This document shows positions 3,491 to 43,696 of a stretch of 64,000 nucleotides of DNA, in pieces. Source of the DNA: Candidatus Binatia bacterium (GTDB lineage Bacteria; Desulfobacterota; Binatia; UBA9968; JAJDTQ01); the NCBI GenBank assembly GCA_963664535.1, contig OY761465.1, forward strand, positions 76,980-140,979. The letters run 5' to 3'. The stretch's first letter is position 1; every line of letters starts with the position of its first letter. The notes beneath the pieces are model-generated. The model was given only the letters and a program-made list of their open reading frames with translations. It had not been told where the DNA came from and did no database searches. The position numbers and the translations under genes are program-made.

Positions 3491-4167
3491 TCAGCCGTCG
3501 AGCACCCATTCCAGCAACAGGAAGCCGGCGGTGACGAAGATCAGGTCGAAGCCCACCAGCAGGCGGAACCAGGGCACCAGATCGGGGGCGGCGCCCGCCC
3601 CCAGAATGATCTGGAGGGTGCGGACGGTGCCCAGGATCACCGGGATCATCAGAGGAAACAGCAGCACGGGAAGCAGCAGGGCGCGGGCCCGGGCCCGCAG
3701 CGTCACCGCGGCGAACAAGACGCCCACGACACAGAAGCCCAGGGTCCCCAGGAGCGTGTAGAGCAGCACGTCCGGCAGCAGGTGCCAGAAGTCCAGGCGG
3801 AACAGGATCCCGAACAGCGGCAGGATGAAGATCTCCAGCAGCGCCATCAGCGAGAAGTTGAAGAGGACCTTGGCGAGGTAGTAGGCGCCCCGGTCCATGG
3901 GCGCCAGCAGCAGCGCGTCCAGGCAATCGTTCTCGCGGTCGCCCTGGAAGAGCTGGCCCAGGGCCAGGGTGCCGCTGAACATGAATGCCAGCCACAGCAG
4001 CCCCGGCGCCATGCCGGCGACGTTGTCCGAGGTGATCTCGAAGGCGAACGAGAAGAGGAAGAGCAGGGAGAGGCCGAAGAAGAACAGCGACAACAGGTTG
4101 TCGCGGCGGCGCACTTCCAGCAGGAGGTCCTTCCAGAGAAGCCAGTAAAGCTGTCGCAGGGCGCCGG

Positions 4168-28278: not shown

Positions 28279-29616
28279 ATGAAACTCTACGTGCAAACCT
28301 GGGGCTGCCAGATGAACCAGCTCGACTCGTCCCGGATCGTGCAGCTCATGAAGTCCGCGGACTACGAGCCCACGGATCGGGTGGACGACGCCGACCTGAT
28401 CATCCTGAACACGTGCAGCGTGCGGGACAAGGCCGAGCAGAAGGTCTACAGCGCGCTCGGAAGGTGGCGCACGCTCAAGGAGGAGAAGGGCGTCATCCTG
28501 GGCGTGGGCGGGTGCGTCGCCCAGCAGGAGGGGGAGGCGTTGCTGCGGCGGGCGCCGCACCTGGACCTGGTGTTCGGCACCCACAACATGCACAAGCTGC
28601 CGCAGATGGTCGAAGAGGCCAGGGAAGCGGCCCGGCGTTCGGTGGAGACGGCCTTCTACCGCGATCCGTTCTATCTCGAGGACCCGTCGGGACTGCCGGA
28701 GACGGACGGCGCCAAGGCCTACGTCACCATCATGCAGGGATGCAACAAGGTGTGCAGCTTCTGCATCGTTCCCCGGGTGCGCGGCCGCGAGGTGAGCCGG
28801 TCCAGCGAGAATATCGTCCGGGACGTGGAGGCGCTGGTGGAGCGCGGCGTCAAGGAGGTGATGCTGCTGGGCCAGAACGTCAACTCCTACGGCCGGACGG
28901 TGGAAGGGGAAAGGTCGTTCCCCGCGTTGCTGGAGCGCATCAACGCCATTCCCGGCATCCGACGGATCCGCTTCACCACCTCTCATCCCCATGACCTCTC
29001 GCCGGAGCTGGTGGATGCCTTCGTCCGGCTCGAGAACCTCTGCGAGCACCTCCATCTGCCGCTCCAGTCCGGTTCCGATTCGGTGTTGGCGCGCATGCGT
29101 CGCGGCTACCGGCTCGACGAGTACATGGAGCGCGTCCGCTCGCTGCGCAAGCGGCGGCCGGAGGTGGCCGTCACCACGGACATGATCGTGGGCTTTCCCG
29201 GCGAGACCGAGGCGGAATTCGAGGAGACCCTGGCCGTCGTCCGCGAGATCGAGTACGACGACATGTTCACTTTCACCTACTCGCCGCGTCCCCGCACGGT
29301 GGCGGCCAAGGTCTACCGCGACGACGTGCCCGACGAGGTCAAGGGGGACCGCTGCCGCAGGCTGCAGGAGCTGCAGAAGGACATTGCGTTGCGGAAGAAC
29401 CGTAGCCTGGTGGGCACGGAGCAGGAGATTCTGGTGGAAGGGCCGTCCAGGCTCGGCAGGGATCAACTCATGGGCCGGACCCGGACCAACCGGATCGTCA
29501 ACTTCACGCCCGGCGAAGCTACGGTGCCGGCGGAGATGGCGCGGGTTCGCGTGGTCGACGCCACGCCCAATTCACTGATCGGCGAGGCCGTGGGAGCAAG
29601 GGAGGTCATGCAATGA
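28279..29616 (+). CDS. miaB: tRNA methylthiotransferase MiaB
   Basis: TWGCQMN, NTCSVRDKAEQK, GCNKVCSFC and a C-terminal TRAM-like region. Confidence 0.96.
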   Translation: MKLYVQTWGCQMNQLDSSRIVQLMKSADYEPTDRVDDADLIILNTCSVRDKAEQKVYSALGRWRTLKEEKGVILGVGGCVAQQEGEALLRRAPHLDLVFGTHNMHKLPQMVEEAREAARRSVETAFYRDPFYLEDPSGLPETDGAKAYVTIMQGCNKVCSFCIVPRVRGREVSRSSENIVRDVEALVERGVKEVMLLGQNVNSYGRTVEGERSFPALLERINAIPGIRRIRFTTSHPHDLSPELVDAFVRLENLCEHLHLPLQSGSDSVLARMRRGYRLDEYMERVRSLRKRRPEVAVTTDMIVGFPGETEAEFEETLAVVREIEYDDMFTFTYSPRPRTVAAKVYRDDVPDEVKGDRCRRLQELQKDIALRKNRSLVGTEQEILVEGPSRLGRDQLMGRTRTNRIVNFTPGEATVPAEMARVRVVDATPNSLIGEAVGAREVMQ

Positions 29617-30128
29617 AGGGTCCTGAAGCAATTGAAATGACCGTGGCCGGCCTGACGCTGGATCAGGTGACCCGGACGCCCATCGTGGTCCTCAAGGACT
29701 CCGAGAACAAGCTGCAGTTGCCCATCTGGATCGGGCTGCTGGAGGCCACGGCCATGGCCACGGAGATCGAAGGCATCAAGATGGCCCGGCCCATGACCCA
29801 TGACCTTTTCAAGAACGTGCTCTCCGAGCTCGGCGGCACGGTCACGAGGGTCGCCATCACCGAGCTCAAGGAAAACACCTACTACGCGGTCATCACGCTG
29901 CTGGTGGGGGACCGTGAGGTGGCCATGGATTCGCGGCCGAGCGACGCCATTGCCATGGCGCTCCGGAGCAAGACGCCCATCTACGTCGCCAAGGAAGTGC
30001 TGGAGCAGTCGAGCGTTCTGCAGCAGACCGAAGAGGGGGGAGACCCGGACTTCGCCAACGTCTCGAAGGAGAAGTGGGGCGAGATCCTGGACAAGATGTC
30101 CCCCGACGACTTCAAGTACAAGATGTAA
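29613..30128 (+). CDS. Bifunctional nuclease family (DUF151) protein
   Basis: LPIWIGLLEA, RPMTHDL and DSRPSDAIA motifs. Confidence 0.92.
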   Translation: MKGPEAIEMTVAGLTLDQVTRTPIVVLKDSENKLQLPIWIGLLEATAMATEIEGIKMARPMTHDLFKNVLSELGGTVTRVAITELKENTYYAVITLLVGDREVAMDSRPSDAIAMALRSKTPIYVAKEVLEQSSVLQQTEEGGDPDFANVSKEKWGEILDKMSPDDFKYKM

Positions 30129-30152
30129 TCCAGAACTGGAGAATCGTTGCAT

Positions 30153-30845
30153 ATGGCAGCGCCGAGACAGCGCATATCGCGAAAGGATATCCGTCAACCC
30201 GACCGGTTCATGGTGCTGATGGGGAGGTGCCTCGATCTCCTCAAGACTTACCGGAGCCCGTTGATCGGCATCGGCGTAGCCGTGGTCGTGGCGGTAAGCG
30301 GCGTGGTGGGTTGGCAATACTACCGCGGGCACCAGCAGGATCTGGCGTCCCAGGCCTACAACAAGGCGCTTCGCGAGTATCAGCAGGCCCGCTACCAGGC
30401 GGCCCTGGAGTCTTTCGAAAGCCTTCGGGCCCGGGGCGAGGCGCCGTACGACGCGCTGGCCGACCTCTATGTAGCCAACAGTTACATAGCCCTGGATCAA
30501 CACGCCAAGGCCGTTGAGACGCTTGGCGCCACCGCCGAGAAGGAACACGATGGCTTCCTGGGCCAGGTGATGCTCGTTACCTTGGGCATCGCCCAGGAAA
30601 TGACCGGCGCCTGCGACGAGGCTGTGCGGTCCCTGGATCGCGCGCTGGAGCGCCAGGGGCCGCTACGGCAGGAAGCCATGCTGGGCAAGGCCCGCTGCAA
30701 CGCGCGGCTGGGAAAAACCCGCGACGCGGTGGAGAGTTACAAGGCTTACCTCAAGGAGTTTCCCGAGGGCGAGACGGTCGAGATCGCGTTGCGGTTGCAG
30801 CAACTCGAAGCCGAATCCGGAACCCCCGTCAAGGCCACGCCCTAA
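30153..30845 (+). CDS. Membrane-anchored tetratricopeptide-repeat protein (YfgM-like)
   Basis: RKDIRQPDRF N-terminus, one TM helix, then TPR-like helices. Confidence 0.8.
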   Translation: MAAPRQRISRKDIRQPDRFMVLMGRCLDLLKTYRSPLIGIGVAVVVAVSGVVGWQYYRGHQQDLASQAYNKALREYQQARYQAALESFESLRARGEAPYDALADLYVANSYIALDQHAKAVETLGATAEKEHDGFLGQVMLVTLGIAQEMTGACDEAVRSLDRALERQGPLRQEAMLGKARCNARLGKTRDAVESYKAYLKEFPEGETVEIALRLQQLEAESGTPVKATP

Positions 30846-31530: not shown

Positions 31531-32583
31531 TCATTGGGCGCGGGAGTGATGTTCCACCGGCAGGCGAGCTTCGTTCCAGGCGAGCAGGCCGCCGGCGAGA
31601 TTGGAGACGTCGTTGAAGCCGGACCTGCCGAGGATCGCCGCGGCGGTGGCGCTGCGCATCCCGGCGCGGCAGATGGTGACCACGGGAGTTGCCTTGTGCT
31701 CGGCGATTTCGGTTACCCGGTTCATGAGCTCCCGGAGGGGAATCAGCACGCTACCGGCCAGGTGGCCGAGCTCTCCCGAGTACTCGCTGGGCTCGCGAAC
31801 GTCCACCAGCAGCGGGCGCGTTTCGGAATCGAGCATCCGCCGGAGCGCCTGGACGTCGATTTCCCGGACCTTCTTGAGCTCGCTCCAGTCGGGAAAGCTG
31901 ATGTCTTCGTTGCTGATGGCCGATTGATTGGGTTGGAGGACCTCCTGGATATTCTGGGGCGGCGAGAGCTGGAGGTTGTTCATGAGGTCGATGTAGTCCT
32001 GCCGGGTCCGGTTGGCGAGCCGCGGGTTGGTCTGTTTTTCGCGGCCGATGGTGGAGGCGGTGTTGCCGCGGTAGTCGTGGCCGGGACGGACGACAGTGTC
32101 GTCCGGGAGCGCGAAGAGCTTGTCCGTGACGGCATCGTACTGCGCGCCGGCGTCGCCGCCGGCGAAGTCGGTGCGTCCCGAGCCGCCGATGAACAGCGTG
32201 TCGCCGGTGAGGACGTTTCCTTCCACCAACAGGCTCATGCCGTCGGGCGTGTGCCCGGGAGTATGGAGGACCCGCACCACGAGAGCGCCGACGGCGATTT
32301 CGTCGCCCTCTTCCAGATGCCTGTCCACGGCGGGGCTGGGGGCCCACTTCTGCATCGCGAACGGCGGTCCGAGCAGGAATCGCAACTGGGGGCACCCGCT
32401 GAGATGGTCGGCGTGGGTGTGGCTGTCGATGACCATGTCCAGCTTGAGGCGATGGTAGGCGAGCACGGCGATATACCGCTCCACGTGGGCGTAGAGCGGG
32501 TCCACCAGCACCGCGTGTCCCCTGCCCTCGTCGGCTATCAGATAGGTCTTGCAGCTTCCGCCGTTGAGCTCGCGGAGGATCAT
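31531..32583 (-). CDS. Persulfide dioxygenase (ETHE1-like MBL fold) fused to rhodanese
   Basis: SHTHADHLSG, HTPGHT, LTGDTLF, GRTDF, PGHDY and STIGREK motifs. C-terminal rhodanese with DVREPSEY and CRAGMRS. Confidence 0.92.
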   Translation of the reverse strand: MILRELNGGSCKTYLIADEGRGHAVLVDPLYAHVERYIAVLAYHRLKLDMVIDSHTHADHLSGCPQLRFLLGPPFAMQKWAPSPAVDRHLEEGDEIAVGALVVRVLHTPGHTPDGMSLLVEGNVLTGDTLFIGGSGRTDFAGGDAGAQYDAVTDKLFALPDDTVVRPGHDYRGNTASTIGREKQTNPRLANRTRQDYIDLMNNLQLSPPQNIQEVLQPNQSAISNEDISFPDWSELKKVREIDVQALRRMLDSETRPLLVDVREPSEYSGELGHLAGSVLIPLRELMNRVTEIAEHKATPVVTICRAGMRSATAAAILGRSGFNDVSNLAGGLLAWNEARLPVEHHSRAQ

Positions 32584-32610
32584 GGCCGTCTCGTCAGGGT
32601 GATGTGGGCG

Positions 32611-33768
32611 CTAAAAGTAACGCCAGAGCCACCATTTCTCGAACAGGACCTTGCTCCAGTAGATCATCCGGGAGGGCCCCCAGGAGCGTGAGTCGGTGGC
32701 GCCGAAAGGCGGCCATCCCTGTGGGTACGTCGTGCGGTTGGCGGCGGCGCGTCCCGCGCCGCAAGAGAGCAGTCATATGGTGTGCAGGTGAAGGGTGGAC
32801 AGTTCCCCTTCCCCCGTGATCTCCGCCACCAGGTTGTCCGCCACGACGTCGGCTTCCTGGTGCGCCACGCCGCCGGCCTTGGAGGCGGGCATGTCGGCGC
32901 AGTCGCCGATGGCGTAGACGTTCTCCCACTTGGTCTCCAGGGTGTCGTAGTCCACCCGTATGCCGTTTTCCTTCTCGGCCAGGCCACAGTCGTAGAGCAC
33001 TTGGGAGGGTCGGTGCGGCGGCACCATCATCAGCAGGTCGTAGGACAATTCGTAGCCGTAGAGGCCCTTGACGCGTTTCCTGTCCGGATCGATGGACTGC
33101 ACGACGAAGTCGTAGTGGATGGTGACGTTGCGCTTCTTGCTTTGGGCGTCCATCCACACCGAGGGCATGTGCTCCTCGCCGGCCGGCTCCGGTTCCCGGG
33201 TGAAGTACTGGAGGTCCACCAGGTCGCGGATGGTCCGCCCCTTGAAGTAGCTGTCCAGCATCCACTGGGCTTCGTAGGGGGCCGGCGGGCAACGGTACGG
33301 TCCCTGCGGGATGCCCACCAGCACGCGCCCCTCGCGGAAATTGTCGAGGGTGGTCCTGAGACGCACGGCCGCGTCCATCTCCCATGAATGCTGCGCCCCC
33401 TCGGCGAAGCCGGGCAGCAGGTCGGGCCTGACCTCGAGGCCCAGGGAAACGATCAGGTAGTCGTACGGGATGGCGGTGCTTTCGAGGATGACTTGCTGGC
33501 GGCCGGCATCGATCCCGAGGATCTCCGCCTGAAGCACCCGGATGTTGCGTTTCTCCAGGCGCTTGAGCTTTCGCGTGATGTCCTCGGGCCGTCGCTGTCC
33601 GACCATCACGAACAGGAACGCGGGCATGTAGACGTGGTCGGCGCGGCGGTCGATGAGGGTTACGTCGTGATCCCCTCCGAGGGCGCGGCCGAGCTTGGTG
33701 GCGGCCACGACTCCGCCACTGCCGCCGCCCAGCACCACGATCTGCTTGCGTCCGTTGTGGTAGTGCAT
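32611..33768 (-). CDS. SQR/FCSD-family FAD oxidoreductase, probable selenoprotein (Sec332, 385 aa)
   Basis: GGGSGG FAD motif, YRCPPAPYE, YAIGD and KAGGVA. The in-frame TGA at 32775-32773 is followed by 53 codons ending PSRMIYWSKVLFEKWWLWRYF-TAG. Confidence 0.85.
32744..32762 (-). promoter_or_regulatory. Putative bacterial SECIS hairpin
   Basis: GCGGCGCG-GGA-CGCGCCGC: a perfect 8-bp stem with a G-first loop, 18 nt between the UGA and the loop. Confidence 0.72.
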
Positions 33769-33778
33769 TTCGTGACCG

Positions 33779-33988
33779 TCAGGAGTCCTGTTGCTGCCGC
33801 CGCCTGGCTCGAAGGGCGAGGCCCTTCAGGTTACGCATGCGCCGGTCCCGCCACATCCGCTGTTCCTGCCGCCCTTCTTCGGTCAGTTCGGACTCGAACC
33901 GCGAAGTGCCGCGGATCAGGCGCAGCACCAGGAAGTCGGAACAGGTCTTGATCTGTTCCGCAATCCAGGTGAAGAGGCCGCCGGACAT
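33779..33988 (-). CDS. Small basic hypothetical protein (69 aa)
   Basis: Fills the gap between the DapA-like and SQR-like genes on the same strand and ends 10 nt before the SQR start. Confidence 0.5.
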   Translation of the reverse strand: MSGGLFTWIAEQIKTCSDFLVLRLIRGTSRFESELTEEGRQEQRMWRDRRMRNLKGLALRARRRQQQDS

Positions 33989-34009
33989 GGGTGTCTTCCG
34001 TTACCCGAG

Positions 34010-34975
34010 CTAACGAAGGAAGGTGTCTTCCTGGGCAAGCTGGATGGCGGCCTCGTCAAAGGCGGCTTCGTCGGGCTCGCCATCGCCGAGGATGCCGATC
34101 TGCCCCAGGAACTGCCCGATCTGGGCATGGTCCCGGGGACTCACGGGCGAGTACGGCCGGGCGGGGTCGCCGATATCGACTCCGAAGTGCTTCAGGGCGG
34201 ATTTCATGATCGGCGGCAGTCCGTAGGCGCCCCACTTCCCCGGGAAGAGGGTGAAACAGCGCTGCCAGTAGCGCGCCTTGTCGACATCGCCGTCCCGGAA
34301 CGCGCGGACGACCCGGGCGCCGATGCGCGTGCCCGGCGGCGGCATGGTGGCGCCGGCGCCTCCCATCATGAGCGTCGTCAGCAACGGCTGCATGGTGGTG
34401 AAGTAGTTGGCCTTGCCGGCGAGGTGGACCTGCTCGATGAGGCGCGTGATCTTGGTGATGTCGCGCGAGCTTTCCTTGAAATAGTCGACTTTCTCGATCT
34501 CGCTGAGCCGCACGAAGGCGTCCAGGGGCGGGTCGGCGCCGGGACCGGGGTTGTGATAGGCGACGATGGGCAACGGGCTGACAGACGCCACTTCGGTGAA
34601 GAACTGCACCAGATCCGCGATGGTGGGCTGCCCGCCCCACGGACGGATGGGCATCAGCACCTGGATGAGGTCGCCGCCCACAGCGGCGGCATGGTCCGCG
34701 AGGTCGAGGATCGTTTCGATGGAATGGCTCGACGCCCCGAGAATGACCGGCACGCGCTTGTTGACGACCTCGGTGGCGCGCCGCATGACTTCCTTCCGCT
34801 CCTGGAGGGAAAGGACCGTGTACTCCGAGGCTTCGACGGCGACCACGGAGATGGCGTCGCAGTCGGCTACGAGAAACTCGATCTGCCGCGCCAGTGCGTC
34901 ATAGTCCACGTTCCCGTCGTCCGTGAACGGGGTCAGCGCAGCTCCGATAATTCCTCTGATGGGGCTTGCCAGCAT
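34010..34975 (-). CDS. Dihydrodipicolinate synthase/N-acetylneuraminate lyase family aldolase
   Basis: ALTPF..G.VDY, VAYHNP and YFKES (Schiff-base Lys). The GxxGE loop is replaced by AVEASE. Confidence 0.85.
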   Translation of the reverse strand: MLASPIRGIIGAALTPFTDDGNVDYDALARQIEFLVADCDAISVVAVEASEYTVLSLQERKEVMRRATEVVNKRVPVILGASSHSIETILDLADHAAAVGGDLIQVLMPIRPWGGQPTIADLVQFFTEVASVSPLPIVAYHNPGPGADPPLDAFVRLSEIEKVDYFKESSRDITKITRLIEQVHLAGKANYFTTMQPLLTTLMMGGAGATMPPPGTRIGARVVRAFRDGDVDKARYWQRCFTLFPGKWGAYGLPPIMKSALKHFGVDIGDPARPYSPVSPRDHAQIGQFLGQIGILGDGEPDEAAFDEAAIQLAQEDTFLR

Positions 34976-34988
34976 GCCTTGACCTCGC

Positions 34989-35639
34989 TCAGACCTCGGC
35001 GACGATTCTGGCGTGGGCCGCGTCGCTCCCCTGCACCTTGAGGGGCAGCGCCATGATGCGGCTCTTGCGTCCAGCAATGGCGGCGAGATTGGTTACGTTC
35101 TCGGCGATCAGCACGTCGTTGCCCAGGAGAGTCCGGTGTACCGGGAAGCCGAACCCCTTGGGCCGCAACGGCGTGGGAAGGTCCACCGTGATGCAGTCGA
35201 TTCCGAACAGCTTCACTCCGCGCTCCACGATCCATTCCGCCGCGTCGACGGAGAGATAGGGGTGCATATTGTATTCTTCGCTTTCGAATTTCTCGTCCCA
35301 TCCGGTATGCAGCATCAGCACGTCGCCCCGCTCCACCGCAACCCCCGAGCCTTCGAGATCCGCCGCGGTGACTTCCTCTCCCCCGCCCTTCTCCACGGAG
35401 ATCACGGCGCCCGGCCCGACGAACGCGTCGAGCGACAGCTCCTCGATGGACTTGCCGTCGGGCATGATGTGGACAGGCGCGTCCACGTGGGTCCCGGCAT
35501 GACACGGCAGGTTGATCTCGGTGACGTTGAGCGGGTGGCCCTTGCCGAGGTCGAAGAAGCGCTGCACGTGCACGTCCGGCAGCACCGGGATCTTGGGCAT
35601 GCCGTCGTAGATTATCCGCGAGAGATCGATCATGGACAT
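34989..35639 (-). CDS. Cyclase family (kynurenine formamidase-like) metal-dependent hydrolase
   Basis: IDLS, HAGTHVDAPVH, HRTLLG and IAENVTNL motifs. Confidence 0.9.
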   Translation of the reverse strand: MSMIDLSRIIYDGMPKIPVLPDVHVQRFFDLGKGHPLNVTEINLPCHAGTHVDAPVHIMPDGKSIEELSLDAFVGPGAVISVEKGGGEEVTAADLEGSGVAVERGDVLMLHTGWDEKFESEEYNMHPYLSVDAAEWIVERGVKLFGIDCITVDLPTPLRPKGFGFPVHRTLLGNDVLIAENVTNLAAIAGRKSRIMALPLKVQGSDAAHARIVAEV

Positions 35640-35677
35640 GGTCGTGTTCCTGAAGGGTTGGGGCGCCTGCCGCGGGT

Positions 35678-36427
35678 TCAGGCCGCGCCTCCGTTGCGCC
35701 AACCGGCGTAGATGGGGTCCTTGTCGACGAAGGCTCTCTTGATGCCGTCGAAGGCCAGCCAGAACTGGTCCAGGGTCTTCTGCACCGACTGGCGCACCAG
35801 ATCCTGCTGCTGGTCGGTGACCGCGTATCGGCTCACGGCCAACGGGCCCACCTTCATGTGCTCTTCGTCCACGCCCATGTGCAGCGTCCAGTAGCGGATG
35901 TTGTCGCTTTCCCGGTCGAAGCCGTAGTGCGTGGTCAGTCCGGTGACGATGCGGCTCATGCGCTCGCTGGCGGTACCTTCAAGGCAGAAGCCCTGGCAGG
36001 CGTAGAGCTCCAGCCATGAGCGTTGGTACATGAGCAGGTCGCGCCAGTCGAGGAACGCCGAGGTCTCGGGCAGGGGCCGCACCGCGTCCAGCTCCTCCTT
36101 GGAAGCGTAGCCGCAGTTCATGGCGAAACGGATGAAGAGGCCGCGGTGACTGTCGGTGCCGGAGATCTCCCCGGTACCCTCCTCCACCACGTTCTCGATC
36201 CACATCCTTTCCAGCTCGGCGTCCTCGGGACAGCGTCCCAGCATGGCCGCGATGGGCTTGGGAAAGGGCTTGGGGAAGAAAAGATAGAACTGGCCCACGA
36301 ACCCCTTGAGCGCCTCCCGGTCGATCTCGCCCCTTTCGATCATCCCGATCAGAGGGTTGTCCTTGGAGTGCTTGGCGCGAACGGTGTCGTGAATTTCCTG
36401 TACAAAAGCATCGCCGGAAAGAGGCAT
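35678..36427 (-). CDS. Heme-oxygenase-like diiron oxidase (CADD/PqqC/TenA fold)
   Basis: Ligand pattern ENVVEE...SH, CLE and HMGVDEEH (HxxxDxxH). Confidence 0.82.
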   Translation of the reverse strand: MPLSGDAFVQEIHDTVRAKHSKDNPLIGMIERGEIDREALKGFVGQFYLFFPKPFPKPIAAMLGRCPEDAELERMWIENVVEEGTGEISGTDSHRGLFIRFAMNCGYASKEELDAVRPLPETSAFLDWRDLLMYQRSWLELYACQGFCLEGTASERMSRIVTGLTTHYGFDRESDNIRYWTLHMGVDEEHMKVGPLAVSRYAVTDQQQDLVRQSVQKTLDQFWLAFDGIKRAFVDKDPIYAGWRNGGAA

Positions 36428-36593
36428 CGAATCCACTCCTGAAAACGTGAATTTTCGTTGAGGGCCGCCGTTTCCCGGCGCCGCATGCGACGCCAGCGGG
36501 AACGGGCGGACTTCCTCCAACGAAGTCAGACTAGTTACTTGAAAGCCGGGCGGATGGCAACCGATGCGACGCTCCGGCGCCTGGGGCGGGCCC

Positions 36594-37616
36594 TCAGTCG
36601 AGTCCGTAGAAGCGCCGGGCGTTGTCTCCCAGGATATTCTGCTTGGCCTCCTGCGAGAGGTCGTCCCGCGCCCATATCAACGAGCCCGATTCCGGCCAGC
36701 TCATGTCCCAATGGGGATAGTCCGACGCATACATGATGGTCTCGGAGCCGATCTCCCCCACCACGTAGCCGATGGTCTTCTCGTCGGGCTCGCAGCCGTA
36801 GTACACGTTCTTGCTGGTGATGTAGCGGCTGGGTTCCTGCTTGCATTCGGGGGCTTCCACGGCGCCGCGTTTCTCCCACTCCTCGTCCATCCGGTCCGAC
36901 CAGTAGGGGATCCAGCCGCAGCCGATCTCGAGAAAGCCGAGCTTCAGGTCGGGGAACAGCTCCGGAACGCCGGCGAAGATCATGCCGGTGAGCTGGCGCA
37001 ATACCGGGAACGGGTGGCCGGTGGTGTGAATGGAGATGAACTGGTCGAAGATCTCGCTGCCGGGCTCGTCGCCGCCGAAGGCGTGGATCGCCAGCGGCGT
37101 CCCGATCTTCTGCGCTTCCTCGTAGAGCGGGAAATACTCCGATGAGCCGAAGTTCTTTCCGTGTCCCTGAGCCGCCAGCATGCCTCCCACCAGTCCCAGC
37201 TCGGTGACCGCGTAGCGCAACTCCTCGGCCGCCGCCTCCGGAGCGTTGACCGGCAGGTTCGCCACGGCCTTGAGACGCGGCGAAACCTTGCAGTAGTCGG
37301 CGATGAACTCGTTGTAGGCGCGGCACAACTGGGTCTGGTAGCCGGGTTCGCGGATGCGGCCGATGCCTAGCCCGCTGGTGGGGTACATGACCGCTGTATG
37401 GATTTCCTGGGTGTCCATGGCGGCCAGGCGCTCCTCGTGCTTGACGCCCGCGTGGCCGAGGGTCCCGCCAAGGTTGCGGTCGTAGGTTTCCCGCGGAATG
37501 AACGGGGGGCGCCGGTTCTGGAAAGCCTCCCCCAGAAACGGCTTGACCAGGTCGTCGTTGTCCCGCGCGTGAGCGTCCGCGTCGATTACCTTAACAGTCG
37601 GGTCGATCTTCCCCAT
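36594..37616 (-). CDS. Amidohydrolase_2 family protein
   Basis: IDADAH, YPT, AIH, FLEIGCGW, ASDYPHWD and NARRFY motifs. Confidence 0.9.
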   Translation of the reverse strand: MGKIDPTVKVIDADAHARDNDDLVKPFLGEAFQNRRPPFIPRETYDRNLGGTLGHAGVKHEERLAAMDTQEIHTAVMYPTSGLGIGRIREPGYQTQLCRAYNEFIADYCKVSPRLKAVANLPVNAPEAAAEELRYAVTELGLVGGMLAAQGHGKNFGSSEYFPLYEEAQKIGTPLAIHAFGGDEPGSEIFDQFISIHTTGHPFPVLRQLTGMIFAGVPELFPDLKLGFLEIGCGWIPYWSDRMDEEWEKRGAVEAPECKQEPSRYITSKNVYYGCEPDEKTIGYVVGEIGSETIMYASDYPHWDMSWPESGSLIWARDDLSQEAKQNILGDNARRFYGLD

Positions 37617-37700
37617 GTTCGTCTCCCTTGATGGAATTTTCGTGTACGTGATCCACCGGCAAAACTACCACCTTCGGCCCCGGATGGAAATCGTCCGTTT

Positions 37701-39830
37701 TCAGGTGGTCGCCTCGAGATCCCGGTCCGGGATGGTGATCACCGGCTCCACCTCCCTCAGCTCCTCCAAGGGAATGTGGCAGGCGATGGAATGGCCCTCG
37801 GTGTCGAGCTGCACCGGCGGCGGCTCGTCATCGCAGATGCTCCCGACCTTCCGCTGGCACCGCGTCGAGAACGGGCATCCCTTGGGCGGATCGAGGGGGC
37901 TCGGCAGATTGCCTTCCAGCACGATGCGGCGCTTCTCCACCTCCGGGTCGGCGATGGGCACCGCAGAGAGCAACGCCTCGGTATAGGGATGATAGGGCGG
38001 CGCGAAGACTTCCTCGGTGGTCCCCCGCTCCATGATCTGCCCCAGGTACATGACCACCACGCGGTCGGAAAGATAGCGCACCGCGGACAGGTCGTGGCTG
38101 ATGAACAGCAGCGTGGTGCGGTGCTCGCGCTGGATGTCCATCAGCAGCTCGGTCACCGCCGCCGCCACCGACACGTCCAGCGCGGAGATGGGCTCGTCCG
38201 CGATGACGGTCTTCGGGTTGCCGGCGAAGGCCCGGGCGATGCCCACCCGTTGCTTCTGTCCGCCGGATAGCTGGCGCGGCTTGCGGGCGGCGAAGGCCCG
38301 GGGCAGCTTTACCGTGTCCAGCAGCTTGTGGACCCGATCCTGGATCTTGGCGGGGTCGGATTCGATGCCGAAGCGCTTGATGACCCGTCCGATCTGGTAG
38401 CCGACGGAGTGGGACGGGTTGAGCGTATCGTTGGGGTTCTGGAACACCATCTGCAGCGATGCGAGCTGCTCCGGGGTACGCTTCTTGACCGCGATGCTGC
38501 CCAGGTCCGTTCCGTCGAGGCGCACCTCGCCGTCGGTGGCGGTCTCCAGGCCCATCAGGACCTTGGCGAAGGTGGACTTGCCGCAGCCCGACTCGCCGAC
38601 GATGGCCACGGTCTCCCCTTCCCCGGCGTCGAAGCTGATGCTCTCGTTGGCCTTCACCTGCCGCACGGCTTCCCGTGAGACGAGCGTCGCCAGCGTGCTC
38701 TCCTTGACGTCGTAGTACTTGCGCATGTTGTCGACTTCAAGGACCGTGTCGCCCACCTCGATGGGCTCGCGGGTGGTTTCGTTGCCTACGACCGCGTCGT
38801 GATCGATCTCGCTCCAGCGCAGGCACCGCACCCGGTGCGCGGGATCGTCGTCGGTGTCAACATCCTCCATGGGAATGTGGTCGGCGTCGCAACGTCCGGC
38901 TTGAAAGGACTCGCAGCGGGGGCCGAAATAGCAGCCCTTGGGGCGTTGGTGCGGCAACGGAAGCTGGCCCTTGATGGCGGCCAGCGGACGGGCGTTCTTG
39001 TCGGCGTGGGGCAGCGGGATACAGCCGAACAACCCGTGCGTGTAAGGGTGCTTGGGCCAGGAGAAGATGGAATCGATATGCCCTTCCTCCACCACCTCGC
39101 CGGAATACATCACGCAGATCCGGTCGCAGACCTCCAGCATCAAGCCGAGGTTGTGGGAGATGTAGAGCAGCGACGCGCCCGATTCCTTGCTCAACTCGGC
39201 GATGAGCTCCACGATCCCCGCCTCCACCGTGACGTCAAGGGCGGTGGTGGGCTCGTCCAGCAGCAGCAGCGCCGGCCGCGACAACAGCGCCATGGCGATG
39301 ACCACCCGCTGCTGCTGGCCGCCGGAGACCTGGTGCGGGTAGGAATCCATCAGGCGCTTGGGATCCGGGATGTTCACGGCCGCCAGCATGTCGAAGGAGC
39401 GCTCGAAGGCCTCTTCCTCGCTCACGCCCTCGTGGATCATGGGCACTTCCATGAGTTGGGCGGCGATGGTCAGGCTCGGATTGAGAGCGGCCATGGGCTC
39501 CTGGTAGATCATGGCGATGTCCTTGCCCCGGACCCGCCGGATCTCCTCCTCGCTCAGTTCGGCCATGTCCCGGCCCTGGAACTTGATGGTGCCGCCGACG
39601 ATGCCGCCGTTCTTGCCCATGTAGCGCATGATGCCGTTGGCCACGGTGGACTTACCGCAGCCGGACTCGCCCACCAGACCCACCGATTCGCCTTTCGCGA
39701 TGGTGAGGTCGAAGTCCATGACCGCGGGAATTTCTCCCGCCCGCGTGTAGTAGCTGAGCCGGAGGCCGGAGATTTCCAGGACCGGCGGCTCGCCGCTGCC
39801 GTTGCCTTTGCCGTTGGGATCGGCCATCAC
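37701..39830 (-). CDS. Peptide/nickel-type ABC transporter, fused double ATPase
   Basis: Two GESGCGKS Walker A motifs, SGGQ signatures and HPYT C-terminal motifs. Confidence 0.95.
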
Positions 39831-39837
39831 GTTCCTC

Positions 39838-40731
39838 CTAATCCTTCAGCGACACTTCCCGCAGCCCGTCGGCCAGCAGGTTGAAGCCCAGCACCAGCAG
39901 GGAGACCGCGCATGCGGGCAGGATCGCCATGTGGGGAAAACCGCCTGTCACGAAGGCGCGGGTCTCGGTAATCATGCCGCCCCAGTCGGGGTCCGGCGGC
40001 GGCAGGCCGAGGCCGAGGAACCCCAGCGCGCCGATGGTGATGGTCGTGTAGCCCATGCGCAGGCAGAAATCGACGATCAGCGGGCTGCGGGCGTTGGGCA
40101 GTATCTCCACCAGCATGATGTACCAGGGCCCTTCGCCCCGGGTCTGGGAGGCCGCGATGTAGTCGCGGGTGGCGATGTCCATGGTGACGCCGCGCACGAT
40201 GCGCATGATGCCCGGCGAGGAGGCGAACACCACCGCGAAGATGATGTTGAGCCCCGAGGCGCCGACCTTCGCGATGATCAGCACGTACAGGACCATGATG
40301 GGAAAGGAGAGGATCACGTTGGCGAAGAACGAGATGATCTCGTCCAGATAGCCCCGGAAGTAGCCCGCGGCCAAGCCCATGACGACGCCGACGATATACG
40401 CGGAAATGGTCGCCACGGTGGCATAGAACAGCACCCGCTGGCCGCCCCAGATGATCCGCGAAAGGATGTCGCGGCCCAAATGGTCGGTGCCGAACAGGAA
40501 TACGCCGCCGTCCGGCGCCGCCGTGCCCGGGAAGGCGAAGGGCAGGATCGTCGCGTTGGGATCGAAGGGTGACACGAGCGGCGCGAAGATCGCCAGCAGG
40601 ACGAAGAACAGCACGATCAGTGCGCCGAACAGGCCGACGGGGCTTTCCCGCAGGAGAGCCACCGCCTTGACCGCGTTCACGATGGTCGAATCCGGCCTTA
40701 CGAGAGGTGCGTCGGTAGTACTGGTAGCCAT
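39838..40731 (-). CDS. Peptide/nickel-type ABC permease (DppC-like)
   Basis: GTDHLGRDILSR and LGFLGLGLPPPDPDWG motifs. Confidence 0.94.
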   Translation of the reverse strand: MATSTTDAPLVRPDSTIVNAVKAVALLRESPVGLFGALIVLFFVLLAIFAPLVSPFDPNATILPFAFPGTAAPDGGVFLFGTDHLGRDILSRIIWGGQRVLFYATVATISAYIVGVVMGLAAGYFRGYLDEIISFFANVILSFPIMVLYVLIIAKVGASGLNIIFAVVFASSPGIMRIVRGVTMDIATRDYIAASQTRGEGPWYIMLVEILPNARSPLIVDFCLRMGYTTITIGALGFLGLGLPPPDPDWGGMITETRAFVTGGFPHMAILPACAVSLLVLGFNLLADGLREVSLKD

Positions 40732-40741
40732 GATCCCCTCC

Positions 40742-41674
40742 TCACTTGAACCGGATCCTCGGGTTCAGATAGGTGTACCCGAGGTCGCCGATGGTTTGGG
40801 TGAAGACGGCCACGAACACCGCCGCCGTGCCGCAGGCCTCGATCACGAAGATGTCCCGCCGTAGCGCCGCTTCCAGCAGCAGCGCCCCGAATCCCTTGTA
40901 GCCGAAGGCGAATTCCGTGACCACGACGCCCGACAGCAGCCAGTTGATCTGGAGCATGATGACCGTGAACGGAGCGATCAGCGCGTTCCGCAGCGCGTGC
41001 TTCATGATGATGTGCCGGTAGGGCAACCCCTTGAGCATGGCGGTGCGGATGTAGTGGTTGGTCATCACCTCCGCCATGGACGCTCGGGTCATTCGGGCGA
41101 CATAGCCGAAGCCGTACAAGGTCAGCACCATCACCGGCAGGATCAGCTCCACCACGTTGAAACCCGACGTCATGGACGAGGTCCCGGGGAGCCAGCCGAG
41201 CGTGAAGACGAAGATCCAGGCGAGCAGCACCGCGCTGGCGTACTCGGGGATGGAGGTGGTGGTGATGGAAAAGACCGAGATCACGCGGTCCTGCGTCGAG
41301 CCTTCCTTCATGCCGGCCAGCACGCCCAGGGTCAGGGCGACAATGACCATGACGACGAAGGTGACCCCGGCCAGGATGCCGGTGTTGCCCAGCCTGTCCC
41401 AGAAGATCTCGTTCACCGGCCGTTTGTAGATGATGGAGTCGCCGAGATCGCCGGACATCACCCTGCCGATCCATTCGACGTAGCGGACCAGGATGTGGCG
41501 GTCGTAGCCGTGCTGGACGATCCAGGCGTCAAGCTGCTGGTCCTGGGCATAGGGTCCCAGGACGCTGCGCGCGATGAGGCGCGGATCACCCTCGTTCATG
41601 AGAAACAGAAGCAGCGCGACCGTGAGCATGATGAGGATCATCATGCCGATGCGCCGCATGATCAGTTGTGGCAT
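40742..41674 (-). CDS. Peptide/nickel-type ABC permease (DppB-like)
   Basis: GDLGDS, YIRTAMLKGL, HALRNAL and LNPRIR motifs. Confidence 0.94.
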   Translation of the reverse strand: MPQLIMRRIGMMILIMLTVALLLFLMNEGDPRLIARSVLGPYAQDQQLDAWIVQHGYDRHILVRYVEWIGRVMSGDLGDSIIYKRPVNEIFWDRLGNTGILAGVTFVVMVIVALTLGVLAGMKEGSTQDRVISVFSITTTSIPEYASAVLLAWIFVFTLGWLPGTSSMTSGFNVVELILPVMVLTLYGFGYVARMTRASMAEVMTNHYIRTAMLKGLPYRHIIMKHALRNALIAPFTVIMLQINWLLSGVVVTEFAFGYKGFGALLLEAALRRDIFVIEACGTAAVFVAVFTQTIGDLGYTYLNPRIRFK

Positions 41675-41735
41675 GTCAGTCTCCGGTGCTCTCTGGTCGT
41701 GGCGTACGCGCACCCGGTCAACCGGGAGGGTGCGG

Positions 41736-41763
41736 GTAGGGGCGACCGGCCGGTCGCCCCTAC
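41736..41763. repeat. GTAG-class REP, perfect 28-bp palindrome
   Basis: GTAGGGGCGACCGGCCGGTCGCCCCTAC, located between the substrate-binding and permease genes. Confidence 0.88.
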
Positions 41764-41785
41764 AGGTTCACCGCAACGCAGGCTC

Positions 41786-43519: not shown

Positions 43520-43696
43520 GAATGCAACCTCCGTTTGGCTCGACTGCTGGGCGGGCGTCGTGAGGGCTGACACGACTCCGGCTGGAAGGGGCACCGCCCG
43601 ATATCCCTGGCGGCCCAACAGACCATTCTCCGAAGCACCAGAGCCTATTCCACATCCGGTCTGGAATGCAAGCCGGTTTTCTGCGATTCTTCGACC

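What the first reader, a model, noticed from the sequence alone, without database searches (positions are those of the whole stretch)
32611..33768. SQR-like flavoprotein with in-frame UGA at the catalytic Cys position and a SECIS-like hairpin: probable selenoenzyme
Seen: the ORF track stops this gene at TGA 32775-32773 (...LHLHTI*). The frame stays open for 53 more codons (LLSCGAGRAAANRTTYPQGWPPFGATDSRSWGPSRMIYWSKVLFEKWWLWRYF-TAG), ending 27 nt before the next gene. Just 3' of the UGA is a perfect hairpin, GCGGCGCG-GGA-CGCGCCGC, with 18 nt between the UGA and a G-first loop. Known: SQR/FCSD enzymes use two redox Cys. One is in CPxAPYE (present here). The other is in a C-terminal C-h-h-x-x-G-x-x-x-A segment, followed by a K..FEK.W-type amphipathic helix. 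Bacterial SECIS elements lie just 3' of the UGA with a G near the start of the apical loop. Inference: the UGA is decoded as Sec332, giving a 385-aa enzyme with a Cys/Sec redox pair and a UxxxC motif. Standard gene callers would truncate it. I cannot verify whether this family is already catalogued as a selenoprotein.
Basis: partly seen in the sequence, partly recalled or inferred. Interest (0 to 1): 0.92.

Follow-up and report, generated by a model that had tools for sequence, protein, structure and literature searches.

The report
Selenocysteine sulfide:quinone reductase-like flavoprotein
This gene encodes a 385-residue sulfide:quinone-reductase-family flavoenzyme whose second active-site cysteine is replaced by selenocysteine (an in-frame UGA followed by a conserved hairpin), a form that public annotation routinely cuts short at 331 residues.

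Summary
The minus-strand gene 33768..32611 has TGA at codon 332 (32775-32773). It then runs 53 more codons to TAG, and the hairpin GCGGCGCG-GGA-CGCGCCGC starts 10 nt after the UGA.

- **Conservation:** the TGA sits at the same place in 76 of 76 relatives that reach the site (79 loci), down to about 65% identity. The downstream peptide is conserved.
- **Hairpin:** its core pairs are kept in 68-69 of 69 distinct sequences. Fourfold-degenerate sites inside the stem show no purines (0 of 207 cells), against 118 of 207 at sites in the loop or just outside.
- **Alignment:** U332 aligns with the C-terminal redox Cys of solved SQRs and with Cys in a 69%-identical homologue.
- **Machinery:** the genome has selA, selB, selD and tRNA-Sec.

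Not new as a kind: a Sec-containing "type III SQR" was predicted in 2025 and has an NCBIfam model, NF049943. This clade is separate from it. It shares about 33% identity, scores 264 bits against a cut-off of 525, has a different hairpin and sits on a different tree branch. Databases list it as truncated 331-aa proteins.

Physiological function as a sulfide:quinone reductase is inferred, not shown.

The parts
32611..33768 (-). Full selenoprotein gene: 385 codons plus the TAG stop. SQR-family flavoprotein.
   Evidence: Pfam Pyr_redox_2 (9.7e-24) and FCSD_central. A profile of the family hits solved SQRs first (human 1.5e-76). AF2 model pLDDT 93.1, pTM 0.92 over the whole 385 residues.
32773..32775 (-). 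In-frame UGA, read as selenocysteine 332 (motif H-T-I-U).
   Evidence: TGA at this codon in 30 of 30 inspected relatives and in 76 of 76 loci that reach the site. It aligns with the Cys of 'TSCPL' in human SQOR and with Cys in P0006 'LHTIC'.
32744..32762 (-). SECIS-like hairpin: 8-bp stem GCGGCGCG/CGCGCCGC with loop GGA, starting 10 nt after the UGA.
   Evidence: The core 6 bp are paired in 68-69 of 69 distinct sequences, and all changes that keep pairing are one-sided wobble changes. Fourfold sites in the stem are only C or T. Synonymous variability is 0.10 here against 0.23 elsewhere in the gene.
32611..32772 (-). Read-through part: 53 codons plus TAG. It encodes two beta-strands, a third strand and a Trp-rich C-terminal helix (FEKWWLWRYF).
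   Evidence: Conserved as protein in all relatives. It aligns with the C-terminal parts of solved SQRs 3h8i and 3hyv. AF2 elements E328-337, E340-348, E361-366, H367-384.
33289..33291 (-). Cys160 in CPPAPYE, the likely redox partner of Sec332.
   Evidence: Aligns with the Cys of 'VKCAGAPQ' in human SQOR. Cys at this site in 78 of 79 loci; the remaining locus does not cover it.
33779..33988 (-). Conserved 69-codon ORF ending 10 nt before the SQR start. Candidate partner or N-terminal module.
   Evidence: Its motif is found in 68 of 79 loci, and in 8 of these it is in frame with the SQR (7 labelled Acidobacteriota or Acidobacteria). Alignment A2 of 19 sequences has 15 invariant columns. No Pfam or NCBIfam hit.
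31531..32583 (-). Downstream gene: metallo-beta-lactamase-fold (persulfide-dioxygenase-like) plus rhodanese fusion, 27 nt after the SQR stop.
   Evidence: Pfam Lactamase_B and Rhodanese. Best NCBIfam match is the sulfur transferase/dioxygenase Blh model, below its cut-off. Present in only 24 of 79 loci: the window's genus, plus one (L150) on the opposite strand.
34010..35077 (-). Upstream DHDPS-family (class I aldolase-like) gene, the most conserved neighbour.
   Evidence: Pfam DHDPS 6.3e-32. Found upstream on the same strand in 74 of 79 loci.
34989..36520 (-). Upstream cyclase/arylformamidase-like gene (35702..34989) and haem-oxygenase-like iron redox enzyme gene (36520..35678).
   Evidence: Pfam Cyclase and Haem_oxygenas_2. 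NCBIfam matches are below cut-off. The cyclase is in 61 of 79 loci. The HO-like gene was seen in L099 and L115, the two loci where I looked for it.

Best explanation
The gene at 33768..32611 (minus strand) encodes a 385-residue FAD-dependent flavoprotein of the sulfide:quinone oxidoreductase (SQR) family. The UGA at codon 332 is decoded as selenocysteine by the SelB/tRNA-Sec system, directed by the hairpin that begins 10 nt downstream. Sec332 takes the place of the C-terminal redox cysteine (human SQOR Cys379 by my recalled numbering). It pairs with Cys160 of the CPPAPYE motif next to the flavin.

Shown here: the conserved UGA, the conserved hairpin, the coding conservation after the UGA, the alignment with Cys, and the complete Sec machinery.

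Inferred: the enzyme oxidises sulfide (or a persulfide-type sulfur) on a Cys-S/Se-Sec redox centre and passes electrons through FAD to a membrane quinone. It would sit on the membrane through the Trp-rich C-terminal helix. In this genus its product would be handed to the persulfide-dioxygenase/rhodanese fusion encoded 27 nt downstream. I put Sec decoding at about 0.9 and true sulfide:quinone reductase activity at about 0.55.

The clade is a second, separately placed Sec lineage within the SQR family, distinct from the catalogued NF049943 group.
For: - **UGA conservation:** exactly one TGA in every hit that covers the site, in all 36 carriers among 41 relatives, at 66-100% identity with query coverage through residue 385. 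It sits at the same codon 'LHTI*LL' in 30 of 30 inspected loci. It is TGA in 76 of 76 loci that reach the site, out of 79 loci; none of these has Cys.
- **Coding after the UGA:** the 53 residues are conserved with ordinary substitutions. No indels were seen in the 30 loci. The AF2 model is confident and builds this part into the fold, with U332 in the middle of strand 328-337.
- **Cys/Sec pair:** P0006 (385 aa, 69% identity) has LHTIC. Human SQOR has Cys at the aligned site. More distant relatives have 'G.C(F/M)(L/I)E' there.
- **Hairpin:** the core 6 bp are paired in 68-69 of 69 distinct sequences. Of the changes in the core stem, 12 cells are one-sided C-to-T changes that keep G-U pairing and 2 cells break a pair. 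The three fourfold sites in the stem read C 200, T 7, purine 0 of 207 cells. Three fourfold sites in the loop or just outside read purine in 118 of 207 cells. Synonymous variability of codons +4 to +11 is 0.10 against 0.23 elsewhere (one-sided Mann-Whitney p = 0.004, overstated because the sequences are related).
- **Machinery:** selA 580 bits, selB 378 bits, and selD 373 bits (itself with one TGA) lie side by side. tRNA-Sec scores 73 bits with anticodon TCA.
- **Co-occurrence with selB:** selB is over its cut-off in 38 of 41 relatives. Of the three without it, two also lack the gene and the third is an 81%-complete assembly. All 5 carriers tested with other phylum labels have selB.
- **TGA is still a stop:** the same gene ends in TGA in 26 of 75 loci.
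- **Family:** Pfam Pyr_redox_2 and FCSD_central. The top 14 distinct PDB sequences for the family profile are all SQRs.
- **Separate clade:** 264 bits on NF049943 against 649-673 bits for true members in the same phylum. About 33% identity, a different hairpin, and separate starred clades in the tree.
Against: - No direct evidence of selenium in the protein; everything here is comparative.
- The hairpin shows no double (compensatory) changes, only wobble changes. Its arms also encode the conserved peptide G-A-G-R-A-A, so part of its conservation is protein constraint.
- Taken alone, the hairpin region folds no better than shuffled sequence (z = -0.06).
- No Rfam family matches the region.
- For the function: the persulfide dioxygenase-rhodanese neighbour is found in only 24 of 79 loci. 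The conserved neighbours are instead a DHDPS-family gene (74 of 79), a cyclase-like gene (61 of 79), a haem-oxygenase-like iron enzyme and a small ORF. None of these belongs to a textbook sulfide-oxidation pathway.
- One relative (P0012, 64% identity) has Asn at the Sec/Cys position.
- The tree is a 'quick' IQ-TREE run on hand-picked rows, so 'independent origin' is the more parsimonious reading, not a proven one.
Confidence: 0.87

Rival explanations
1. The protein is a genuine Sec flavoprotein of the SQR fold, but its physiological job is not sulfide detoxification or respiration. It would be the redox enzyme of a conserved cassette: haem-oxygenase-like iron enzyme, cyclase-like hydrolase, DHDPS-family lyase, small partner protein and Sec flavoprotein, behind an Opp-type ABC importer. 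In that role it would act on an imported organic sulfur (or selenium) compound, or on a persulfide or disulfide released from it.
For: The DHDPS-family gene lies upstream on the same strand in 74 of 79 loci and the cyclase-like gene in 61 of 79. The HO-like gene is present in both distant loci examined. The small ORF is in 68 of 79 loci and is fused in frame with the SQR in 8. The DHDPS-like gene stays linked in loci with another phylum label (Acidobacteriota). Opp-type ABC transporter genes and an Amidohydro_2 gene lie directly upstream in the window. The PDO-rhodanese gene is genus-specific.
Against: Conserved gene order among related MAGs may reflect shared descent rather than shared function. 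The protein keeps both redox residues and the C-terminal amphipathic helix typical of SQRs. In the window's genus the classic partner, PDO-rhodanese, follows after 27 nt. No neighbour family has a known link to sulfur chemistry.
Confidence: 0.3
2. The UGA is a true stop. The gene makes a 331-residue protein, and the 53 downstream codons are untranslated or form a separate small gene.
For: This is how public gene callers read it. Nearly all of the 120 best database hits are 329-331 aa and cover 84-86% of the query.
Against: The downstream frame is conserved as protein across 65-100% identity and without indels in the 30 loci. It has no start codon of its own at the junction. It matches the C-terminal parts of solved SQRs. 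Truncation would remove the second redox residue and cut a predicted beta-strand in the middle. A Cys-containing full-length homologue exists (P0006).
Confidence: 0.03
3. The UGA is read through as something other than Sec, such as Trp, Cys or Gly by near-cognate suppression or a reassigned code.
For: The comparative data alone cannot name the residue that is inserted.
Against: TGA ends the same gene in 26 of 75 relatives, so it is not reassigned. The complete selA-selB-selD cluster and tRNA-Sec are present. The two relatives that are at least 92% complete and lack selB also lack the gene. A hairpin lies at the distance expected for a bacterial SECIS, with synonymous-site constraint. The site is a redox Cys, the usual place for Sec.
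Confidence: 0.03
4. The TGA is a sequencing error or a recent nonsense mutation, making this a pseudogene.
For: None beyond the bare stop codon.
Against: The same TGA is present in 76 of 76 loci from separate assemblies, across several taxon labels.
Confidence: 0.005

Closest known systems
[quoted passage not shown] Listed with motif HxxU in the review PMC13188914 (passages read).
   Same: Same superfamily and fold family. Sec sits at the same active-site position with the same H-x-x-U pattern: GHATU there, LHTIU here. Cys-containing homologues exist in both groups. Both occur in the same phylum as grouped by the genome tool.
   Different: Only about 33% identity. The window protein scores 264 bits against the model's cut-off of 525, while true members score 649-673. 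The C-terminus is different and shorter: FEKWWLWRYF here, against a longer tail of about 90 residues there. The hairpin sequence and its spacing differ. The two Sec groups fall in opposite halves of the tree, each with 100* support and with many Cys forms between them. The gene neighbourhood also differs.
Solved Cys-type SQRs: human SQOR (6oi5, 8dhk), Acidianus ambivalens (3h8i), Aquifex aeolicus (3hyv), Acidithiobacillus ferrooxidans (3sz0 and others)
   Same: These are the best PDB matches to the protein and to its family profile. They share the FAD Rossmann motif, the first redox Cys in a C-x-x-A-P motif, the second redox residue in the C-terminal third, and a C-terminal helical membrane-binding part.
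   Different: All of them have Cys where this protein has Sec. Identity is low: E = 1.6e-29 for the single sequence against human SQOR. The window protein is shorter (385 aa against 409-437). The assignment of SQR 'types' to these structures is recalled, not tested here.
Flavocytochrome c sulfide dehydrogenase flavoprotein (FCSD; 1fcd, 3vrd, 5n1t)
   Same: Pfam FCSD_central matches (34.5 bits). PDB matches reach 4e-27 to 3e-23. The two-Cys redox centre is the same.
   Different: FCSD ranks below all SQRs with the family profile. Alignments to 5n1t and 1fcd stop before the C-terminal helix. None of the neighbouring ORFs I scanned matched a cytochrome family. The Rossmann motif starts at residue 9, which leaves no room for an export signal.

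Membership tests
Bacterial selenoprotein (SelB-dependent Sec insertion) | In-frame UGA that aligns with Cys in homologues | tested here: met
   U332 aligns with Cys in P0006 (LHTIC), with Cys in human SQOR, and with Cys in relatives of 28-40% identity.
Bacterial selenoprotein (SelB-dependent Sec insertion) | UGA and downstream coding frame conserved in other Sec-using organisms | tested here: met
   TGA in 76 of 76 loci that reach the site. All 36 carriers among 41 relatives show '1 TGA'.
Bacterial selenoprotein (SelB-dependent Sec insertion) | Stem-loop (bacterial SECIS) just 3' of the UGA with G in the apical loop. The criteria (loop about 16-37 nt after the UGA) are recalled from bSECISearch; that program was not run. 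| tested here: met
   Hairpin at +13 to +31, with the loop 18 nt after the UGA and GG invariant in the loop. The core 6 bp are paired in 68-69 of 69 distinct sequences. Stem fourfold sites show no purines in 207 cells. No double compensatory changes were seen.
Bacterial selenoprotein (SelB-dependent Sec insertion) | selA, selB, selC (tRNA-Sec) and selD in the genome | tested here: met
   All are over their curated cut-offs, and the tRNA has anticodon TCA.
Bacterial selenoprotein (SelB-dependent Sec insertion) | Selenium shown in the polypeptide | not testable with these tools
   Needs 75Se labelling or mass spectrometry.
Sulfide:quinone oxidoreductase (SQR) family | FAD-binding two-dinucleotide-fold flavoprotein, with solved SQRs as nearest structures | tested here: met
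   Pyr_redox_2 9.7e-24. GGGSGG at residues 14-19. The top 14 distinct PDB sequences for the profile are SQRs.
Sulfide:quinone oxidoreductase (SQR) family | Two redox-active Cys-type residues at the flavin (C-x-x-A-P motif plus a C-terminal Cys) | tested here: met
   Cys160 is conserved in 78 of 79 loci. Sec332 occupies the second site.
Sulfide:quinone oxidoreductase (SQR) family | C-terminal amphipathic helix or helices for monotopic membrane binding | tested here: inconclusive
   AF2 predicts a helix at 367-384 with the Trp-rich FEKWWLWRYF sequence. Membrane binding itself was not tested.
Sulfide:quinone oxidoreductase (SQR) family | Sulfide-dependent reduction of quinone | not testable with these tools
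   Needs an enzyme assay.
NCBIfam NF049943 (type III SQR, selenoprotein subtype) | Score at or above the curated cut-off of 525 bits | tested here: not met
   264.1 bits and 258 bits in the six-frame search. True members score 649-673 bits.
NCBIfam NF049943 (type III SQR, selenoprotein subtype) | H-x-x-U motif at the Sec site | tested here: met
   HTIU here; GHATU in members. The motif is as listed in PMC13188914.
Flavocytochrome c sulfide dehydrogenase | Partner cytochrome c subunit gene alongside, and an export signal | tested here: not met
   None of the neighbouring ORFs scanned matched a cytochrome family. There is no N-terminal extension before the Rossmann motif.

The most novel reading that the evidence does not exclude
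This is an independently evolved selenoenzyme lineage, widespread in uncultured soil and sediment bacteria (MAGs labelled Candidatus Binatia, Syntrophobacterales, Thermodesulfobacteriota and Acidobacteriota). Here the SQR fold has been recruited, together with a dedicated small partner protein that is fused to it in the Acidobacteriota-labelled loci, as the Sec-dependent redox step of a conserved and so far undescribed cassette (haem-oxygenase-like iron enzyme, cyclase-like hydrolase, DHDPS-family lyase) for an imported organosulfur or organoselenium compound. It would not be a general sulfide:quinone reductase.
Probability: 0.2. Interest if true: 0.7.

Novelty: new member of a known kind. Interest (0 to 1): 0.5.

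Why it matters
**Annotation.** Nearly all of the 120 best database relatives are deposited as 329-331-aa proteins that lack the second catalytic residue and the membrane helix. NCBI names them only 'NAD(P)/FAD-dependent oxidoreductase'. The one curated selenoprotein model for SQRs does not reach this clade. A dedicated model for the 'LHT[IL]U...GAGRAAANRT' clade would correct these records, many of them from uncultured soil and sediment MAGs.

**Biology.** This is a second case, placed separately on the tree, of Cys-to-Sec replacement at the same SQR active-site position. That makes it a natural experiment on what Sec does at the residue that carries the sulfane sulfur. The Cys revertant P0006 and the Asn form P0012 are ready-made comparators.

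**Context.** The conserved small partner ORF and the upstream cassette point to a function worth testing.

Tried and rejected
**Rejected readings.**
- Sequencing error or pseudogene, rejected.
- A true stop with a separate downstream ORF, rejected.
- A reassigned TGA, rejected together.
It is not conserved: the +4 residue is F in 34, C in 24, Y in 17 and M in 1 of 76 loci.
- Membership of NF049943. The score is half the cut-off.

**Led nowhere.**
- Rfam scan of 32000-34000 at E up to 10 gave only two chance-level matches, and no SECIS family matched.
- The promoter and terminator scan of 32400-34200 found nothing on the gene's strand.
- Single-sequence folding of the hairpin region is not better than shuffles.
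- I looked for double compensatory changes in the stem and found none.
- Literature searches for 'Binatia' with 'selenocysteine' gave 0 papers. 'selenoprotein' with 'SQR' and 'sulfide' gave 10 papers, none on a bacterial Sec-SQR judging by title and abstract start. The BSepDB paper PMC13326102 does not contain 'sulfide', 'quinone' or 'FAD-dependent' in its main text.
I therefore cannot say whether members of this clade are already listed there. My statement that the clade is uncatalogued rests only.

**Not done.**
- bSECISearch was not available.
- I did not check raw reads, because 76 separate assemblies agree.
- I could not compare the AF2 model with solved structures or measure the Cys160-Sec332 distance.
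- SQR 'type' assignment against typed references was not possible.

**Limits of the tree.**
- It is a 'quick' IQ-TREE run.
- It uses 10 of the 30 own-order loci.
- It uses all 25 phylum loci.
- It uses 35 hand-picked proteins out of the 150 representatives (mostly full-length ones), together with P0006 and P0012.
Full report
**1. The observation**

On the minus strand an ORF starts at ATG 33768. It reaches TGA at 32775-32773 (codon 332, after ...LHLHTI). The same frame continues for 53 codons to TAG at 32613-32611. The next minus-strand gene starts 27 nt later at 32583. The perfect hairpin GCGGCGCG-GGA-CGCGCCGC lies at 32762-32744, so its loop begins 18 nt after the UGA. Taken alone the hairpin is not remarkable in this 65% G+C DNA: the 91-nt stretch folds no better than its shuffles (z = -0.06; composition). 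Its meaning had to be tested by comparison.

**2. What the protein is**

The read-through product (P0001, 385 aa) matches Pfam Pyr_redox_2 (9.7e-24) and FCSD_central (2.5e-08). Its best solved relatives are sulfide:quinone oxidoreductases (human SQOR 1.6e-29), followed by flavocytochrome c sulfide dehydrogenases. Alignments to the Acidianus (3h8i) and Aquifex (3hyv) SQRs run to residues 382-383, that is, through the read-through part.

With a profile of 36 family members (A1), the top 14 distinct PDB sequences are all SQRs (1.5e-76 to 4.9e-56). They rank ahead of FCSD (8e-54) and NDH-2 (1.9e-42).

In the printed alignment with human SQOR, Cys160 of CPPAPYE aligns with the Cys of VKCAGAPQ, and U332 aligns with the Cys of YTSCPL. 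By my recalled numbering these are Cys201 and Cys379, the two redox cysteines.

An AlphaFold2 model built on A1 is confident over the whole length (pLDDT 93.1, pTM 0.92). It places U332 inside strand 328-337, followed by strands 340-348 and 361-366 and a terminal helix at 367-384. A stop at 331 would cut a strand and remove the second redox residue and the Trp-rich helix.

**3. Is the UGA conserved?**

- Among 41 genomes (own genus and order), 36 have the gene. In all 36 the match that covers the site shows exactly one TGA, at 66-100% identity. The full-length hits cover the query to residue 385.
- In the 30 loci I could read, the TGA is at the same codon (LHTI*LL) and the 53 downstream residues are conserved, with ordinary substitutions and no indels.
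- A scan of one genome per species returned 79 loci. Of these, 76 reach the site and all 76 have TGA there; 3 end at a contig edge before it; none has Cys. One locus, L138, has a frameshift upstream of the site.
- These records are labelled Candidatus Binatia, Syntrophobacterales, delta proteobacterium, Thermodesulfobacteriota, Acidobacteriota or Acidobacteria, Candidatus Acidiferrales, Verrucomicrobiia (2) and Chloroflexota (1). MAG labels may be unreliable.
- In protein databases, nearly all of the 120 best hits are 329-331 aa and cover 84-86% of the query. They are the same gene cut at the UGA, named 'NAD(P)/FAD-dependent oxidoreductase' or 'sulfide:quinone oxidoreductase'.
- Two full-length relatives exist. 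P0006 (69% identity) has LHTIC, a true Cys/Sec pair. P0012 (64% identity) has Asn at the position.

**4. The hairpin**

I compared 77 sequences, which give 69 distinct 45-mers.

- The six core pairs (positions 14-19 with 25-30, counting the U of UGA as 0) are paired in 68-69 of 69.
- All changes that keep pairing are one-sided C-to-T changes giving G-U (12 cells). Two cells break a pair. There are no double compensatory changes.
- The arms also encode the conserved peptide G-A-G-R-A-A, so the informative sites are the fourfold-degenerate third positions.
- The three such sites inside the stem (positions 17, 26, 29) read C 200, T 7, purine 0 of 207 cells. Both C and T can pair with the G opposite.
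- The three such sites in the loop or just outside (positions 20, 23, 32) read purine in 118 of 207 cells.
- In the 30-sequence set, synonymous variability is 0.10 for codons +4 to +11 against 0.23 for 132 other codons (one-sided Mann-Whitney p = 0.004; overstated because the sequences are related).
- The loop keeps GG. It is 3 nt long (GGA, GGG, GGT or GGC) when pair 20/24 forms (32 of 69), and otherwise 5 nt.
- The codon before the UGA is ATA in 71 of 77 sequences, and the base after it is C in 75 of 77.
- No Rfam family matches the region.

This fits the bacterial SECIS pattern as I recall it from bSECISearch, but that program was not run.

**5. The Sec machinery**

- The closed 4.31-Mb genome has selA (580 bits), selB (378 bits) and selD (373 bits, itself with one in-frame TGA), side by side at C1:1815881-1820179.
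- It has a tRNA-Sec (73 bits, anticodon TCA) at C1:355613-355703.
- selB is over its cut-off in 38 of 41 relatives. The three without it are G026 and G038, which also lack the SQR gene, and G033, an 81%-complete assembly that has the gene.
- All 5 tested carriers with other phylum labels have selB.
- TGA is still an ordinary stop in these organisms. The same gene ends in TGA in 26 of 75 loci, in TAG in 30 and in TAA in 19.

**6. Comparison with what is known**

[quoted passage not shown] It is the best model for the window protein, but at 264 bits against a cut-off of 525.

The review PMC13188914 lists that family with motif HxxU and credits deep-Sep (passages). [quoted passage not shown] So a selenoprotein SQR is already in print as a kind.

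In a sample of 301 genomes of the phylum, 24 had a match at E <= 1e-30, and none outside the window's order exceeded 40% identity. Seven loci of family f17 carry TGA at the aligned site in the motif GHATU. In the five genomes I tested, seven places score 649-673 bits on NF049943, four with a TGA and three with Cys. These true members differ from the window protein in several ways:

- They are about 33% identical to it.
- They have a longer, unrelated C-terminal tail.
- They carry a different hairpin, CGAGAAGG-GGTC-CCTTCTCG, starting 20 nt after the UGA.

In a 72-row tree (quick IQ-TREE; rows chosen as stated under Tried and rejected), the window's clade has 13 rows: 11 Sec, the Cys form P0006 and the Asn form P0012. 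The NF049943-type Sec clade has 9 rows: 8 Sec and 1 Cys. Each has 100* support. They lie in opposite halves of the tree with many Cys forms between them, and the Sec label needs at least 5 changes. Two separate Cys-to-Sec replacements at the same site is the more parsimonious reading. The tree is unrooted and quick, so this is not proven. Within the window's clade the deepest member (P0122, truncated at ...LHTL) is already of the Sec type, so Cys in P0006 looks like a reversion.

**7. Function and context**

In the window, the next gene (32583..31531) is a metallo-beta-lactamase-fold plus rhodanese fusion. Its best NCBIfam match is the sulfur transferase/dioxygenase Blh model, below cut-off. 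SQR followed by persulfide dioxygenase and rhodanese is the classic heterotrophic sulfide-oxidation set (established knowledge, recalled). However, this neighbour is present in only 24 of 79 loci, essentially the window's genus.

The conserved neighbours lie upstream on the same strand:

- a DHDPS-family gene (74 of 79 loci);
- a cyclase/arylformamidase-like gene (61 of 79);
- a haem-oxygenase-like iron enzyme gene, seen in both distant loci examined;
- in the window, an Amidohydro_2 gene and an Opp-type ABC transporter further upstream.

Between the DHDPS-like gene and the SQR lies a 69-codon ORF (33988..33779) with no family match. Its motif occurs in 68 of 79 loci. In 8 of these it is in frame with the SQR, 7 of them labelled Acidobacteriota or Acidobacteria. 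Several versions begin with a hydrophobic stretch. This looks like a dedicated partner or N-terminal module.

I therefore hold the chemistry as likely: a Cys160/Sec332 centre that takes up sulfane sulfur and passes electrons through FAD to a quinone. I hold the physiological role as open, at about 0.55 for sulfide:quinone reductase and about 0.3 for a specialised cassette enzyme.

**8.

- The UxxxC motif is not a family feature. The partner residue is Cys160, conserved in 78 of 79 loci.
- The family is already catalogued as a selenoprotein in a sister clade, though not for this clade.

**9. Verdict**

This is a real and well-supported selenoprotein gene that standard callers truncate. It is a new member, in a separately placed clade, of a kind described in 2025. 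Interest is moderate. It matters for annotation of many uncultured soil and sediment genomes. It is also a second natural Cys-to-Sec replacement at the SQR active site, and it comes with an unexplained conserved partner ORF and cassette.

Noticed in passing
window 33779-33988 (minus strand): A conserved 69-codon ORF with no family match lies between the DHDPS-like gene and the SQR, ending 10 nt before the SQR start. Its motif is in 68 of 79 related loci. In 8 of these it is in frame with the SQR (7 labelled Acidobacteriota or Acidobacteria), and some versions start with a hydrophobic, transmembrane-like stretch.
   Followed up: partly
window 34010-45598 (minus strand): Upstream on the same strand lies a run of genes: an Opp-type ABC transporter (a solute-binding protein in a 1270-codon longest ORF, two permeases, a fused double ATPase), Amidohydro_2, a haem-oxygenase-like iron enzyme, a cyclase/arylformamidase-like gene and a DHDPS-family gene. 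The last three stay linked to the Sec-SQR in distant relatives. No known pathway fits them.
   Followed up: partly
own genome C1:1819253-1820179 (locus L010): selD itself contains one in-frame TGA, so SelD is probably a selenoprotein here as well. selA, selB and selD are contiguous.
   Followed up: no
window 32776-32778 and 32772 (minus strand); loci L078-L156: The codon before the UGA is the rare ATA (Ile) in 71 of 77 sequences, and the base after the UGA is C in 75 of 77. This may be a context requirement for Sec insertion or simply protein constraint.
   Followed up: no
P0012 (383 aa, 64% identity) and P0006 (385 aa, 69% identity): Within the Sec clade, one relative has Asn in place of Sec/Cys (motif HDLN) and another has Cys (HTIC). 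The Asn form may have lost the redox function.
   Followed up: no
L138 (about 3860-3985) and protein P0007: A one-base frameshift lies upstream of the Sec codon in one long-read MAG locus. One database protein of 398 aa continues out of frame past the same region. These are probably assembly errors.
   Followed up: no
G312 and G339 (loci L058/L077 and L076/L072): Two genomes of the same phylum carry both a Sec copy and a Cys copy of the NF049943-type SQR, each over the model's cut-off.
   Followed up: no
window 29463-30548 (minus strand): A 361-codon ORF with no Pfam or NCBIfam match has relatives of 35-42% identity downstream of the SQR in 47 of 79 loci.
   Followed up: no
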